Source: Candidatus Poribacteria bacterium
Lineage (GTDB): Bacteria > Poribacteria > WGA-4E > WGA-3G
NCBI GenBank assembly: GCA_965218285.1
Contig: OZ244616.1
Location: forward strand, 5,960,270 to 6,024,269
Length of the DNA stretch: 64,000 nt
Direction: 5' to 3'
This document shows, in pieces, positions 1 to 2,881 of this stretch. The position numbers and the translations under genes are program-made. Under the pieces are notes generated by a model. The model was not told the origin of the DNA, made no database searches, and saw only the letters and a list, made by a program, of their open reading frames with translations. Within the stretch, counting starts at the first letter, position 1; each line of letters starts with the position of its first letter.

Positions 1-1212
1 CTTTTGTCTTTTGAGGAACCGACGTGTTTTATCTTTTCACATTCTGCACTTCGGGAAGGTTGGGATAGTCCAAATGTCTTCCAGATTTGCACGTTGAACC
101 AGACAGTTTCTGAGATGAAAAAACGACAGGAAATTGGACGGGGTGTACGCCTTGCTGTCAATCAAGAGGGAAAACGGGTGCATGATGAAAAACTTAACGT
201 GCTTACTGTCGTTGCCAACGAAAGTTATACCAATTATGTTCGGCAACTTCAAACCGAAGTTCAGGATGAGTTTGGAACTACCGACAGCATGCCTAAACCG
301 AAAGATGCAAGAGAACGTGGTGCAATAAAACTCAAAAAAGCAATGACACTTAAACCGGAATTTGAGGCACTCTGGAATCGTATAAAACACAAAACGCGAT
401 ACAAGGTGCAGGTTGACACAGAAAAACTGATTGAGGAAGTCGTGGAAATATTGGATAAAACCAACATCCAACTTCCCCAAATATCAATAGAGAAGGGGGA
501 ATTGAAAGTTAATAAAGATAACGCGTTTGAAGCAGAACTCATTGCGGATAGCAGCTTGACATACCGTTTATCGGGTAGGGCAAACGTTTTGAAGTCAATT
601 GAACATCGTTTAGCGCATACAACACCAGCAATGAGACTAACACGGCGAACCCTCTTGAAAATTCTTAAGCGCACCAAAAACCAGCAAGCTGCTTTAGACA
701 ACCCTCCTGAATTCGCTAAGGTCGTGGTTGAGAAAATCAGACAGAAAATTATAACGCAACTTATTGATGGCATAAAGTATGAAAAAATCGGTGAAGTGTA
801 TGAAATGAGCCAATTTGACTGTGAACTGGAAAGTTGGAAAGACTGTATGGTACCTGCGTCGCGTTCCATTTATGATCATGTGATTTGGGACTCGGATGTT
901 GAAAAAGAATTTGTTGAAGGATTAGAAAGGCGGGACGACATCATACTCTACTTGAAACTTCCTGCTTTTTTCACCGTGCTGACTCCTATTGGAAACTATA
1001 ATCCAGATTGGGCAATAGTCAAAGAAGAACGTGATGCACACGGTGAACCAATTGGTGAAGAAAAACTCTATCTGGTAAGAGAGACAAAAAGCACAACGGA
1101 TTCGGATAAACTGCGGCACCACGAAGAATGGAAAATAGACTGTGGTAGAAGGCATTTCTGCGATGCACTTAATGTTGATTACAAGGTTGTCACCTCAGCG
1201 GAGGAAGTATAA
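1..1212 (+). CDS. res: Type III restriction endonuclease Res subunit, C-terminal part (5' end outside window)
   Basis: Open at the window edge. Helicase motif VI-like FSHSALREGWDSPNVFQICTL...RQEIGRGVRL. C-terminal PD-(D/E)xK-like motif (NPDWAIV ... LYLVRETKS). This pattern is typical of type III R-M Res proteins. Confidence 0.8.
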   Translation, partial: LLSFEEPTCFIFSHSALREGWDSPNVFQICTLNQTVSEMKKRQEIGRGVRLAVNQEGKRVHDEKLNVLTVVANESYTNYVRQLQTEVQDEFGTTDSMPKPKDARERGAIKLKKAMTLKPEFEALWNRIKHKTRYKVQVDTEKLIEEVVEILDKTNIQLPQISIEKGELKVNKDNAFEAELIADSSLTYRLSGRANVLKSIEHRLAHTTPAMRLTRRTLLKILKRTKNQQAALDNPPEFAKVVVEKIRQKIITQLIDGIKYEKIGEVYEMSQFDCELESWKDCMVPASRSIYDHVIWDSDVEKEFVEGLERRDDIILYLKLPAFFTVLTPIGNYNPDWAIVKEERDAHGEPIGEEKLYLVRETKSTTDSDKLRHHEEWKIDCGRRHFCDALNVDYKVVTSAEEV

Positions 1213-1262
1213 TAGTGTTTTCTGACAGACGTACTTTTCCAGAAACGCTTTAGATAGTGGAA

Positions 1263-2768
1263 TTACAAAGCGTCAAAAAAGTTCAAATATTGTGAAGGAT
1301 TTGTAACAAGAGTTTGAAAATTACTATCCCCTTGATTAGTACGCCAGAATAAAGTTTCATACCACTTAATCCAAGCTTCCCAGGAATCCCTCATCTGATC
1401 TTGTGTGACACCTACACACGTCCATAGTTCTGGTAGTGTCGGATCGCGACGTAGAAGTAAAGTGGCACGCTGTTTTATTTCGTATTTCTCATACAGAAAA
1501 TCAAAAGGGACATTGACGCTATTAAACGAGTTTGATCCTATTTCTCTTCCGGTATCAATTTCTACTGCTAATTCATGCATACTCAATGCCATGTAGTATG
1601 CAACAAGTGAAGTTCGGTATTCTACGTCATTTGCGAATATGTGTGGCAACCACTCCCACCTTTCATAAGCATTTACCAAATATTCCCAACTTTCTATACG
1701 TCTATTGCCAAGTGATTTACAGTGCCCCATAAGTAGACTGTTTTCCCACAAACTCCGAGTATACTGTGAATCCATTGTTAAAGTGAATTTTGTCCGTGCT
1801 AAACTTAAGGCAAGATTTAACTGATTTGTTTGGAGACAACGACTCCCGTGCAAACTATGATAGACGTATCCGAGAGCATAAGGAATTTCAATCCAAGGTA
1901 TGAAACCAGCACGGTTCCAGTCTTCCATACTTTGTATATTCAGCAGGTCATCAAGCAATGATGCTTGATTATTGAAGTTTTCATTACGCGATTCAACTCC
2001 GACAAGAGCCATAGAAATTAAAGGGGCAACAAAATTAACTGCTTTATCCATTTTTTGGTGCAGCTGCTCTATGTTTTCTGCTCGTTGTCCATCCAATTCC
2101 TCTTGTCGCCATTGCACAATTGATTTGAATGCATTCGGACGAATTTGCCTGACAAGTCGAGACCAACCTAAAGTGTCATCTGCTCTTGCAAGCTTAAATG
2201 CAGACTCATAAGCATCGTCAACCGATTCAATCTTGTCAGGAATTTCAGGCAGATTATGACTTAGATCTTCAGGTTCCGAAGGTTGATTAGGAAGCGGGTT
2301 TTTACCTAATCGTGGTTTCCTGATAATTGGTACGTTATGAATTTCATGAAGTAACTCATTGAATTTCTCATCAAATTCGCTGTCATCTGTGAAATCAATA
2401 TAGACTCTCGTTGCTAAAAAAGTTGGTGTTTTCTCATCTGCTGACGATTGACGAATTATGGGAATGAATTTATTCGTTCCTAAATCTTGAGCGAGTTGAG
2501 CGGTAACAATAAGCCTCTCATATCCTACGCCTCCCTCACCAGCGTTTGCCTTTCTTACATAAGTATCTGTGCATATAACAAGGACCCGATCAGAATCCCT
2601 AACTCCTTTTTCCACGAATAATGTTAGATCATCCCCTGCCCCTAAATTCCACTGGTCAAGGATTACGTCAATTCCGTTTTCAACAAGTTTAGTGCAAAGT
2701 TGTAGTACCCACTCTTTATGCTCATCGGAATCATGAGAATATGAGGCAAATACTTTCGGTGATTGCAT
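1263..2768 (-). CDS. TIR-domain protein with about 330-aa uncharacterised helical C-terminal domain
   Basis: N-terminus KVFASYSHDSDEHKEWVLQLCTKLVENGIDVILDQW...DSDRVLVICTDTY...GGVGYE resembles bacterial TIR_2/SEFIR-like domains. Start placed at ATG 2768 behind a GAGGAA RBS; the track ORF extends to GTG 2798. Confidence 0.7.
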   Translation of the reverse strand: MQSPKVFASYSHDSDEHKEWVLQLCTKLVENGIDVILDQWNLGAGDDLTLFVEKGVRDSDRVLVICTDTYVRKANAGEGGVGYERLIVTAQLAQDLGTNKFIPIIRQSSADEKTPTFLATRVYIDFTDDSEFDEKFNELLHEIHNVPIIRKPRLGKNPLPNQPSEPEDLSHNLPEIPDKIESVDDAYESAFKLARADDTLGWSRLVRQIRPNAFKSIVQWRQEELDGQRAENIEQLHQKMDKAVNFVAPLISMALVGVESRNENFNNQASLLDDLLNIQSMEDWNRAGFIPWIEIPYALGYVYHSLHGSRCLQTNQLNLALSLARTKFTLTMDSQYTRSLWENSLLMGHCKSLGNRRIESWEYLVNAYERWEWLPHIFANDVEYRTSLVAYYMALSMHELAVEIDTGREIGSNSFNSVNVPFDFLYEKYEIKQRATLLLRRDPTLPELWTCVGVTQDQMRDSWEAWIKWYETLFWRTNQGDSNFQTLVTNPSQYLNFFDAL

Positions 2769-2881
2769 TGTTTCCTCTGATTTGAGTTGTTTTCTCACGT
2801 TTTTGTGTTACAATTTAACGCAATTATAGCACTTCTCAGGTTTTGTGCCAACTTTTAATCGGGGTGCCCTAAAAATATACC

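What the first reader, a model, noticed from the sequence alone, without database searches (positions are those of the whole stretch)
1..2798. TIR-domain protein with a large unrecognised C-terminal domain, convergent with a type III restriction Res gene
The 501-aa ORF begins with a TIR-like domain (VFASYSHDSDEHKEWVLQL...IDVILDQW...RVLVICTDTY...GGVGYE). It continues with ~330 aa of Trp-rich helical sequence that I cannot assign to any family. There is no obvious NTPase, STING, SAVED, TPR or TM signature.

It sits 50 bp from the stop of a type III Res gene. Directly after it the conserved rimP operon starts, so this is the edge of a defence island whose remainder lies upstream of the window. 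Bacterial TIR proteins are recurrent NAD+-depleting or signal-generating antiphage effectors. This single-gene TIR plus novel-domain architecture may be an undescribed variant.
Basis: partly seen in the sequence, partly recalled or inferred. Interest (0 to 1): 0.68.

Follow-up and report, generated by a model that had tools for sequence, protein, structure and literature searches.

The report
SEFIR-type anti-phage gene beside restriction system
The 501-residue gene is a relative of the already described single-gene 'SEFIR' anti-phage system, which starves infected cells of NAD+; its large C-terminal half really is an uncharacterised domain, probably the part that senses infection.

Summary
A 501-aa ORF (window 1263-2768, minus strand) ends 50 bp from the stop of a type III Res gene and is followed by rimP-nusA-ylxR-infB.

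The N-terminal 150 residues are a bacterial SEFIR domain, a sister of TIR. PADLOC bSEFIR scores E=3e-76, PDB 5y8e E=9e-28, and identity to the verified Bacillus sp. NIO-1130 SEFIR defence protein is 43%. The residue whose mutation abolished defence there (D40) is D38 here and is invariant, as is E84 in GGVGYE. The gene is therefore a member of a kind described in 2022, not an undescribed system.

The C-terminal 330 residues model as one confident all-helical domain (pLDDT 89, pTM 0.91). They have no Pfam, PADLOC or NCBIfam hit and no Foldseek match. They show no detectable similarity to the C-terminus of the verified protein.

This domain defines a family of at least 358 50%-identity clusters. 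Most carry SEFIR, and a few carry a Ser/Thr kinase, a ParA-like ATPase or a TIR domain instead, as expected of a swappable sensor module.

Homologues are greatly expanded in Candidatus Poribacteria. Across several phyla they sit next to, or inside, restriction-modification operons.

Best reading: a single-gene abortive-infection NADase with an unstudied sensor. Interest is moderate to low.

The parts
1263..2768 (-). bSEFIR-type defence gene, 501 aa plus stop. An alternative GTG start at 2798 would give 511 aa.
   Evidence: ORF list. PADLOC bSEFIR E=3e-76. More than 1000 full-length homologues of about 500 aa.
2319..2768 (-). Residues 1-150: SEFIR (STIR-clan) domain, the predicted NADase effector. 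It contains invariant D38 and E84 (GGVGYE).
   Evidence: PDB 5y8e E=9e-28, and 4e-39 with a profile. Foldseek top hit is 5y8e, with TM 0.74 on the target. 43% identity to verified bSEFIR residues 3-164. Invariant columns.
2256..2318 (-). Residues 151-171: low-confidence linker that starts with the conserved KPxLGKNP motif.
   Evidence: pLDDT below 50 for residues 150-171. The motif is shared with the verified bSEFIR.
1266..2255 (-). Residues 172-501: uncharacterised all-helical, Trp-rich C-terminal domain, the proposed infection sensor.
   Evidence: AF2 pLDDT 89.4 and pTM 0.91. No PDB or BFVD structural match. No PADLOC or Pfam hit. 358 representative clusters. Conserved signature W202, S260, Q268, W284, P296, G308, W373, F378, Y391, P421, W463, W466.
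2823..2851 (-). Promoter-like site TTGGCA-17-TATAAT with an extended -10 TG, upstream of the gene.
   Evidence: Consensus scan, 11 of 12 matches. This is a consensus match only, and the number of such sites in the region is no higher than in shuffles.
2774..2777 (-). GAGG ribosome-binding site upstream of the ATG at 2768.
   Evidence: Read directly from the sequence.
1213..1262 (.). 50-bp spacer between the convergent stops of Res and the SEFIR gene.
   Evidence: No terminator-like hairpin was found there. The same convergent arrangement, with 14-68 bp gaps, occurs in L001, L002, L005, L010, L011, L039 and L078.
1..1212 (+). C-terminal about 400 aa of a type III restriction endonuclease (Res), cut by the window edge.
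   Evidence: PADLOC REase_III 3e-106, Pfam RE_endonuc 1e-34, NCBIfam type III R-M endonuclease 2.8e-36. In L078 the gene continues into ResIII/DEAD and is preceded by an N6_N4 methylase.

Best explanation
The gene encodes a single-protein abortive-infection anti-phage system of the SEFIR (bSEFIR) kind.

The N-terminal SEFIR domain is the effector. When activated it hydrolyses NAD+ to ADP-ribose and nicotinamide, which starves the infected cell and the phage.

The C-terminal ~330-residue helical domain holds the effector inactive and recognises an infection cue, most likely a phage protein. Recognition drives SEFIR-SEFIR self-association, which switches on the NADase.

The gene is an autonomous transcription unit. 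It is parked next to a type III restriction-modification system at a slot where alleles are exchanged.

Shown here: domain identity, conserved functional residues, family modularity, purifying selection, and association with restriction-modification loci.
Taken from the literature on a homologue: defence, NAD+ depletion and capsid-linked escape mutants.
Inferred: that this protein does the same, that E84 is catalytic, and that the C-terminal domain is the sensor.
For: SEFIR identity:
- PADLOC bSEFIR E=3e-76.
- BcSEFIR crystal structure sequence 5y8e E=9e-28, and 4e-39 with a profile.
- Foldseek best hits are 5y8e and 5y8f.
- 43% identity over 162 residues to the verified Bacillus sp. NIO-1130 protein (sequence taken from the supplement).

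Functional residues:
- The D40A mutation abolished defence in the verified protein. The equivalent D38 is invariant in 54 homologues, as is E84 of GGVGYE.

Literature on the homologue:
- SEFIR is described as a single-protein system that depletes NAD+ through its N-terminal SEFIR domain, and the phage NARP1 pathway counters it.
- Escape mutants map to the capsid protein.

The C-terminal domain as a swappable module:
- Of 95 representative proteins that carry it, 61 hit TIR_2 and 59 hit SEFIR.
- 5 have a Ser/Thr kinase that resembles PADLOC PD-T4-6/Stk2.
- 3 have a ParA-like AAA_31 ATPase that resembles PADLOC PDC-M28B.
- 1 has a LexA DNA-binding domain.

Defence context:
- Of 103 immediate neighbours in 52 loci, 25 are HsdS, 6 are HsdR and 11 hit ResIII. 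Of those 11, 5 also hit RE_endonuc and so look like type III Res. A further 18 are DUF4276, 13 are nucleotidyltransferases and 4 are SLFN/AlbA_2.
- 5 of 7 non-Poribacteria loci checked have a restriction-modification gene directly adjacent.
- L082 shows the gene inside an hsdM...hsdR operon.

Selection:
- dN/dS is 0.18-0.34, so the gene is under purifying selection and functional.
- The C-terminal domain has the higher ratio in 5 of the 6 comparisons where both halves could be computed. In L039 it is slightly lower (0.32 against 0.34).
- Both halves evolve faster than Res, at 0.07-0.13.
Against: No experiment exists on this protein or on any protein with this C-terminal domain.

The bSEFIR model hit is carried by the N-terminal domain alone, because the C-terminal domain on its own hits nothing. 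hhalign gives 0.1% probability between this C-terminal domain and that of the verified protein. Trigger and regulation therefore cannot be transferred from the verified protein.

Pfam scores TIR_2 (81 bits) above SEFIR (51 bits).

The catalytic role of E84 rests on positional analogy only. Sequence alignments to TIR NADases stop at residue 74.

The sensor role of the C-terminal domain is inferred from modularity. It could instead be a scaffold or a partner-binding domain.

Some homologues lie among metabolic genes without obvious defence neighbours (L079).
Confidence: 0.68

Rival explanations
1. Restriction-modification guard, in the manner of PrrC. The protein is functionally tied to the neighbouring restriction system. 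Its C-terminal domain monitors the restriction complex, or a phage anti-restriction factor, and fires the SEFIR NADase when restriction is disabled.
For: Adjacency to restriction-modification genes of several types recurs across phyla: type I, type III and MmeI-like IIG.

In about 24 Poribacteria loci the gene follows hsdS on the same strand and often overlaps its stop. hsdR lies downstream. From established knowledge of the E. coli prr locus, prrC occupies this same slot.

The convergent Res-SEFIR pairing is kept in 7 loci even though the SEFIR allele has been replaced.
Against: The partner systems belong to unrelated types, so one physical interaction is unlikely.

Some loci lack any restriction gene (L079; L041 and L047).

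In the window the gene is convergent with res and has its own promoter-like site.

From general knowledge, restriction operons are generic insertion hot spots for defence genes.

The verified SEFIR works alone when moved into B. subtilis.
Confidence: 0.15
2. Signal-generating SEFIR. The domain makes a nucleotide second messenger from NAD+, as Thoeris ThsB TIR proteins do, for a separate effector. It does not deplete NAD+ itself.
For: The SEFIR domain belongs to the STIR clan. There are weak hits to ThsB and ThcB4 models. In Poribacteria the gene is often followed by a second SEFIR gene fused to an AAA_21 ATPase, and then by DUF4276.
Against: No partner effector gene accompanies it in the window, in L078 or in L079. 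The ThsB hit is insignificant (E=0.035). The literature describes SEFIR as depleting NAD+ by itself.
Confidence: 0.07
3. Eukaryote-like symbiosis factor. Sponge-symbiont Poribacteria use SEFIR-domain proteins to interfere with host SEFIR/TIR immune signalling.
For: The family is strikingly expanded in Candidatus Poribacteria, including tandem copies. In animals, SEFIR domains mediate IL-17 receptor to Act1 signalling. Human Act1 is a weak hit at E=0.002.
Against: There is no signal peptide or secretion motif, since the protein starts directly with the first SEFIR strand.

Full-length homologues occur in MAGs assigned to Nitrospira, Desulfobacula, Verrucomicrobiota, Terriglobales and others.

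The genes lie inside restriction operons.

The candidate catalytic Glu is invariant.
Confidence: 0.03
4. Non-immune or decayed gene: a housekeeping signalling protein, or a pseudogene in the making.
For: No experiment has been done. Some relatives sit among metabolic genes.
Against: The reading frame is intact, dN/dS is about 0.2, and more than 1000 full-length homologues exist. A promoter-like site and a ribosome-binding site are present. The defence context is strong.
Confidence: 0.05

Closest known systems
SEFIR / bSEFIR defence system of Bacillus sp. NIO-1130 (Millman et al. 2022; IMG gene 2616229772, 468 aa)
   Same: Single gene of about 470-500 aa with an N-terminal SEFIR domain: 43% identity, E=6e-42. 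The KPxLGK linker motif is shared. The residue needed for defence is conserved (D40 there, D38 here). Both hit the same PADLOC model. The C-terminal half is helical and unannotated in both.
   Different: The C-terminal domains show no detectable similarity by BLASTP, by profile against sequence, or by hhalign with a 114-sequence profile (probability 0.1%). The capsid-linked trigger reported for the Bacillus protein therefore cannot be assumed here. In Pfam the Bacillus protein scores SEFIR above TIR_2, and the window protein the reverse.
BcSEFIR, Bacillus cereus F65185 SEFIR domain (PDB 5y8e / 5y8f)
   Same: It is the best sequence and structure match for residues 3-153: E=9e-28, Foldseek E=5e-6, TM 0.74-0.76 on the target.
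   Different: Only a 144-154 residue SEFIR-domain construct was crystallised. The relatives of it found here are short, 89-259 aa, and lack this C-terminal domain. Its authors interpreted it as a protein-interaction domain.
TIR-domain NADase effectors (AbTir, BtpA/TcpB, SPARTA TIR-APAZ, Thoeris ThsB)
   Same: Same STIR-clan flavodoxin-like fold. Foldseek gives probability 1.0 with TM about 0.6-0.67 on the target. The profile match covers residues 11-74. The expected chemistry, NAD+ glycohydrolysis, is the same.
   Different: The similarity is much weaker than to SEFIR (E of 1e-6 or worse). The alignments break before the GGVGYE segment. No ThsA, Argonaute or CBASS partner gene is present.
DSR1 / DSR2 and Avs-type single-protein sensors
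   Same: The logic is the same: an N-terminal NAD+-consuming or other effector is fused to a C-terminal domain that recognises a phage protein. Effectors are swapped on a conserved sensor.
   Different: The effector fold differs (SIR2 in DSR1/DSR2). Those proteins are much larger. The C-terminal domain here has no STAND NTPase, and it has no structural match to any solved sensor.
PrrC anticodon nuclease inside the EcoprrI type I restriction operon
   Same: Relatives of this gene occupy the same slot, between hsdS and hsdR.
   Different: There is no sequence or fold relationship. In the window the gene is convergent with a type III res and is not embedded in an operon. Dependence on restriction is untested.

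Membership tests
bSEFIR (SEFIR defence system, Millman 2022) | N-terminal SEFIR-fold domain | tested here: met
   Pfam SEFIR 1.8e-13. PDB 5y8e E=9e-28, and 4e-39 with a profile. Foldseek top hits are 5y8e and 5y8f. 43% identity to the verified protein.
bSEFIR (SEFIR defence system, Millman 2022) | SEFIR hit stronger than TIR hit, which is the authors' inclusion rule (HHsearch against PDB and Pfam) | tested here: inconclusive
   Against PDB sequences and structures, SEFIR wins by more than 20 orders of magnitude. With Pfam hmmscan, TIR_2 (81 bits) exceeds SEFIR (51 bits). TIR_2 is reported to hit nearly every STIR subclade. HHsearch itself was not run.
bSEFIR (SEFIR defence system, Millman 2022) | Match to the family's HMM | tested here: met
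   PADLOC PDLC03957 bSEFIR E=3e-76, 256 bits, residues 1-289. The verified protein scores 340 bits. The score comes from the N-terminal part, because the C-terminal domain alone gives no hit.
bSEFIR (SEFIR defence system, Millman 2022) | Residue required for defence (D40 of the verified protein) is conserved | tested here: met
   D40 in LDKWD aligns with D38 in LDQWN. D38 is invariant in 54 homologues.
bSEFIR (SEFIR defence system, Millman 2022) | Stand-alone single gene enriched in defence islands | tested here: met
   The gene has its own promoter-like site and ribosome-binding site and is convergent with res. About 40% of immediate neighbours of homologues are restriction-modification components.
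bSEFIR (SEFIR defence system, Millman 2022) | C-terminal domain homologous to that of the verified protein. This is not part of the published definition, but it matters for transferring the mechanism. | tested here: not met
   BLASTP, profile against sequence, and hhalign all align only the SEFIR domain and linker. hhalign probability is 0.1% for the C-terminal domains.
bSEFIR (SEFIR defence system, Millman 2022) | Phage defence by infection-triggered NAD+ depletion | not testable with these tools
   This needs plaque assays and NAD+/ADPR measurement. It is known only for the Bacillus protein.
Thoeris (ThsB TIR plus ThsA) | ThsB-type TIR with an adjacent ThsA (SIR2/SLOG or Macro) effector | tested here: not met
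   ThsB model E=0.035 and ThcB4 E=0.0014, far below its cutoff. No such neighbour is present in the window or in L078.
Avs / STAND-type sensors | Central STAND NTPase with Walker motifs | tested here: not met
   No NTPase family hits residues 160-501, here or in 95 family members. The domain is all-helical.
Type III restriction endonuclease Res (the neighbouring gene) | Helicase-like ResIII/DEAD core plus a C-terminal endonuclease domain, next to a Mod methylase | tested here: met
   The window holds the C-terminal part (REase_III 3e-106, RE_endonuc 1e-34). ResIII/DEAD and an N6_N4 methylase lie just beyond the edge in the 94%-identical L078.

The most novel reading that the evidence does not exclude
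The C-terminal ~330-residue Trp-rich helical domain is a previously undescribed, phylum-spanning immune sensor module. It is attached interchangeably to SEFIR, TIR, Ser/Thr-kinase and ParA-like ATPase effectors. It is habitually lodged in or beside restriction-modification operons. It may read out the state of restriction (a PrrC-like guard), or it may read a phage cue different from the capsid-linked cue of the verified SEFIR system.
Probability: 0.35. Interest if true: 0.55.

Novelty: new member of a known kind. Interest (0 to 1): 0.32.

Why it matters
Annotation. The gene should be labelled as a SEFIR (bSEFIR) anti-phage gene sitting beside a type III restriction system. It should not be labelled as a novel TIR system.

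The open question. Only one SEFIR protein has been tested, and its C-terminal domain is unrelated to this one. Nothing is known about what this widespread domain recognises. It spans at least 358 clusters at 50% identity.

Why the domain is a tractable target. It is reused with kinase and ParA-like effectors. It is consistently placed in restriction operons. In Poribacteria it has multiplied and its alleles turn over. These features make it a concrete target for finding a new phage-sensing specificity, and for asking why NAD+-depleting genes ride with restriction systems.

Tried and rejected
- Searching 'bSEFIR' in the paper library found nothing. One preprint id was not held.
- A homologue search seeded with the BcSEFIR domain returned only short (89-259 aa) Bacillus-type proteins, not the verified protein.
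- A search seeded with the C-terminal part of the verified protein found a single fragment. No profile could be built for a profile-profile test. hhalign therefore used our 114-sequence profile against single sequences.
- The full-model Foldseek list was saturated by TIR hits. A C-terminal-only model was made, and it still gave nothing in PDB or BFVD.
- tblastn of the C-terminal domain found no match in 72,556 plasmid records or 50,697 phage records.
- Rfam found nothing in 1-12000.
- The window has no paralogue of the gene.
- The exact protein is not on record in the contig index, so the window's own upstream flank could not be fetched. The relative L078 was used instead.
- Thoeris, Avs/STAND, STING, SAVED, TPR and membrane-protein readings were rejected for lack of any supporting hit. 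The symbiosis-factor reading was judged unlikely.
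Full report
**1. What is in the sequence**

The minus strand carries an ORF at 1263-2798, which is 511 aa from GTG and 501 aa from the ATG at 2768. The ATG is the likelier start. It has a GAGG 7 nt upstream, and the closest homologues are 500-501 aa.

A near-consensus promoter-like site lies at 2851-2823: TTGGCA, a 17-nt spacer, then TG-TATAAT. 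Such sites are no more frequent in this region than in shuffled sequence, so this is a pointer only.

The + strand ORF that runs off the window start and stops at 1212 is the C-terminal ~400 aa of a type III Res. It hits PADLOC REase_III at 3e-106, Pfam RE_endonuc at 1e-34, and the NCBIfam type III endonuclease model at 2.8e-36.

The two stops are 50 bp apart (1213-1262). rimP (3211-3672), nusA, ylxR and infB follow.

**2. The N-terminal domain is SEFIR**

- Pfam gives TIR_2 at 1e-22 and SEFIR at 1.8e-13.
- Against solved structures, the only strong match is the bacterial SEFIR domain of Bacillus cereus (5y8e). It scores E=9e-28 with the single sequence and 4e-39 with a family profile.
- True TIR NADases reach only 1e-3 to 1e-7, and only over residues 11-74.
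- The AlphaFold model (mean pLDDT 80.7) has 5y8e and 5y8f as its best Foldseek matches, with TM 0.74-0.76 on the target. TIR domains follow with TM about 0.6-0.67.
- PADLOC's bSEFIR model scores E=3e-76.

I recovered the first 399 of 468 residues of the experimentally verified SEFIR defence protein from the paper's supplement (Bacillus sp. NIO-1130). It is 43% identical over residues 1-158, with E=6e-42.

That paper reports three things. The single gene protects B. subtilis from phi29. D40A abolishes defence. SEFIR-domain genes are enriched in defence islands in more than 20 phyla.

Later work describes SEFIR as a single-protein system that depletes NAD+ through its N-terminal SEFIR domain and is countered by the phage NARP1 pathway. 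Escape mutants map to the capsid protein.

D40 aligns with D38 here. D38, W40 and E84 of the GGVGYE motif are invariant in 54 homologues. That E84 is the catalytic glutamate is an inference from its position relative to TIR NADases. The sequence alignments do not reach it.

**3. The C-terminal domain is unassigned and differs from the verified protein**

Residues 150-171 are a low-confidence linker. Residues ~172-501 fold as one compact all-helical domain with a small hairpin. The domain-only model has pLDDT 89.4 and pTM 0.91. The domain has 13 Trp, which is 3.9%.

Nothing recognises it:
- Pfam, NCBIfam and PADLOC give no hit, either here or across 95 family members.
- Foldseek finds nothing in the PDB (best E=0.12, TM 0.19).
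- Foldseek finds nothing in BFVD (best E=0.26).

The bSEFIR model hit is therefore carried by the SEFIR half, since the C-terminal half alone scores nothing.

BLASTP, a profile against the verified sequence, and hhalign with a 114-sequence profile all fail to align the two C-terminal halves. hhalign probability is 0.1%. The same negative result holds against five other C-terminal types found behind closely related SEFIR domains in other bacteria, and against the ATPase half of a second Poribacteria SEFIR protein.

SEFIR proteins thus carry several unrelated C-terminal domains. Only one of these has ever been tested, and it is not this one.

**4. The domain family and its modularity**

A search of 1.84 billion representative proteins with residues 160-501 found 358 clusters at E≤1e-3 and 85 at E≤1e-30.

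Of 95 representatives scanned:
- 61 hit TIR_2 and 59 hit SEFIR at the N-terminus.
- 5 carry a Ser/Thr protein kinase that resembles the PADLOC PD-T4-6/Stk2 defence kinases.
- 3 carry a ParA/MinD-like AAA_31 ATPase that resembles PADLOC candidate PDC-M28B.
- 1 carries a LexA DNA-binding domain.
- Some have unassigned N-termini, or are about 320 aa with the domain alone. Those short ones could be fragments.

The conserved signature is W202, W220, S260, Q268, W284, G288, P296, G308, W361, W373, F378, Y391, P421, W463 and W466.

A constant, non-enzymatic-looking domain behind interchangeable enzymatic heads is the pattern seen in single-protein immune sensors. That is the basis for calling it the sensor. 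It is an inference.

**5. Genomic context**

*The window's own locus.* The relative L078 is about 94% identical in DNA. It has the same rimP | SEFIR | Res arrangement. It shows the part missing from the window: the rest of Res (called there as two ORFs), a Mod methylase, a DDE transposase and small DUF genes. The island is small, essentially a type III restriction-modification system plus this gene.

*Taxonomic spread.* In GTDB species genomes, 581 stretches encode relatives. Most of the full-length ones listed are from Candidatus Poribacteria. More distant full-length relatives (32-48% identity) occur in MAGs assigned to Spirochaetia, Desulfobacula, Nitrospira, Verrucomicrobiota, Chthoniobacterales, Opitutales, Gemmatimonadales, Terriglobales and others.

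*Neighbours of homologues.* Of 103 immediate neighbours in 52 loci:
- 25 are type I specificity subunits (HsdS) and 6 are HsdR.
- 11 hit ResIII. Of these, 5 also hit RE_endonuc and so look like type III Res.
- 18 are DUF4276, 13 are nucleotidyltransferases and 4 are SLFN/AlbA_2.

A cluster of 24 related upstream neighbours lies on the same strand, and many overlap the start of the SEFIR gene. By size and count this cluster corresponds to the HsdS hits.

L082 reads hsdM, SLFN/AlbA_2, NTase-HsdS, SEFIR-CTD, SEFIR-CTD, SEFIR-AAA_21, DUF4276, hsdR, all on one strand.

Five of seven non-Poribacteria loci checked have an adjacent restriction-modification gene: MmeI-like, HsdR twice, HsdM, and a DNA methylase. 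A minority lie among metabolic genes (L079).

**6. Evolution**

| Measure | SEFIR gene | Res neighbour |
|---|---|---|
| dN/dS against the window | 0.18-0.34 | 0.07-0.13 |
| dS in L005, L011, L039 | 0.8-1.4 | 0.37-0.48 |
| Protein identity in L005, L011, L039 | 49-66% | 90-91% |

For L005 the gene-wide dS could not be computed, so its SEFIR dS is the value for the C-terminal domain only.

Within the SEFIR gene, the C-terminal domain has the higher dN/dS in five of the six comparisons where both halves could be computed. In L039 it is slightly lower (0.32 against 0.34).

The gene is under purifying selection and so is functional. The excess synonymous divergence in L005, L011 and L039 shows that the slot behind res is conserved while its SEFIR allele has been replaced. 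That is typical of defence loci.

**7. Verdict**

The gene is a member of the SEFIR (bSEFIR) kind of single-gene, NAD+-depleting, abortive-infection anti-phage system.

What is new is narrower. The C-terminal domain is an uncharacterised, widespread, modular family, unrelated to the sensor half of the only tested SEFIR protein. It has a marked habit of sitting in or beside restriction-modification operons. Its trigger is unknown.

A PrrC-like guard role for restriction is a minority possibility (about 0.15). A symbiosis role in sponges is unlikely.

Confidence in the defence/NADase reading is about 0.7. Interest is about 0.3.

Noticed in passing
window 5278-6674: A stretch of about 1.4 kb between ylxR and infB is absent from the 94%-identical relative L078. 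It carries an IscB/IsrB-like RRXRR (RuvC) ORF at 5786-6649 (+). A PLMP-like N-terminal piece sits in another frame at about 5490-5663, so the gene looks split. No HNH motif was seen and there is no Rfam hit. This is a transposon-associated, RNA-guided-nuclease-type element inserted inside the nusA-infB operon.
   Followed up: partly
window 6968-7112: A perfect 24-nt repeat, six copies, lies inside infB. It encodes (KETPKDAP)n in the N-terminal region of IF2.
   Followed up: no
window 9015-9196 and 10765-11385: Intergenic tandem arrays of palindromic 131/189-nt units. The 181-nt unit at 9015-9196 occurs five times in tandem in L078. They look like REP/MITE-type repeats.
   Followed up: no
L082 3268-17063; also L008, L013, L016, L034, L036 and others: In about 22 Poribacteria genomes the full-length homologue is followed by a second SEFIR gene of about 556 aa, fused to an AAA_21/AAA_15 ATPase, and then in most of them (18 DUF4276 neighbours in the census) by a DUF4276 gene. 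In L082 the whole set lies inside a type I hsdM-hsdS...hsdR operon. L034 has three tandem full-length copies.
   Followed up: partly
proteins P0154, P0167, P0258 (kinase); P0137, P0217, P0240 (ParA-like); P0127 (TIR_2): The same C-terminal domain is fused to Ser/Thr kinases resembling PD-T4-6/Stk2 defence kinases, to ParA-like ATPases resembling PADLOC candidate PDC-M28B, and to a non-SEFIR TIR domain.
   Followed up: partly
L005, L011, L039 compared with window 1-2768: The Res neighbour is 90-91% identical (dS 0.37-0.48), while the adjacent SEFIR gene is only 49-66% identical (dS 0.8-1.4). The SEFIR allele has been replaced at a conserved slot.
   Followed up: yes
L078 11557-14310: In the closest relative, the type III Res is called as two ORFs (540 aa with RE_endonuc, and 373 aa with ResIII/DEAD). 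A DDE transposase lies next to Mod. The restriction gene may be frameshifted there.
   Followed up: no
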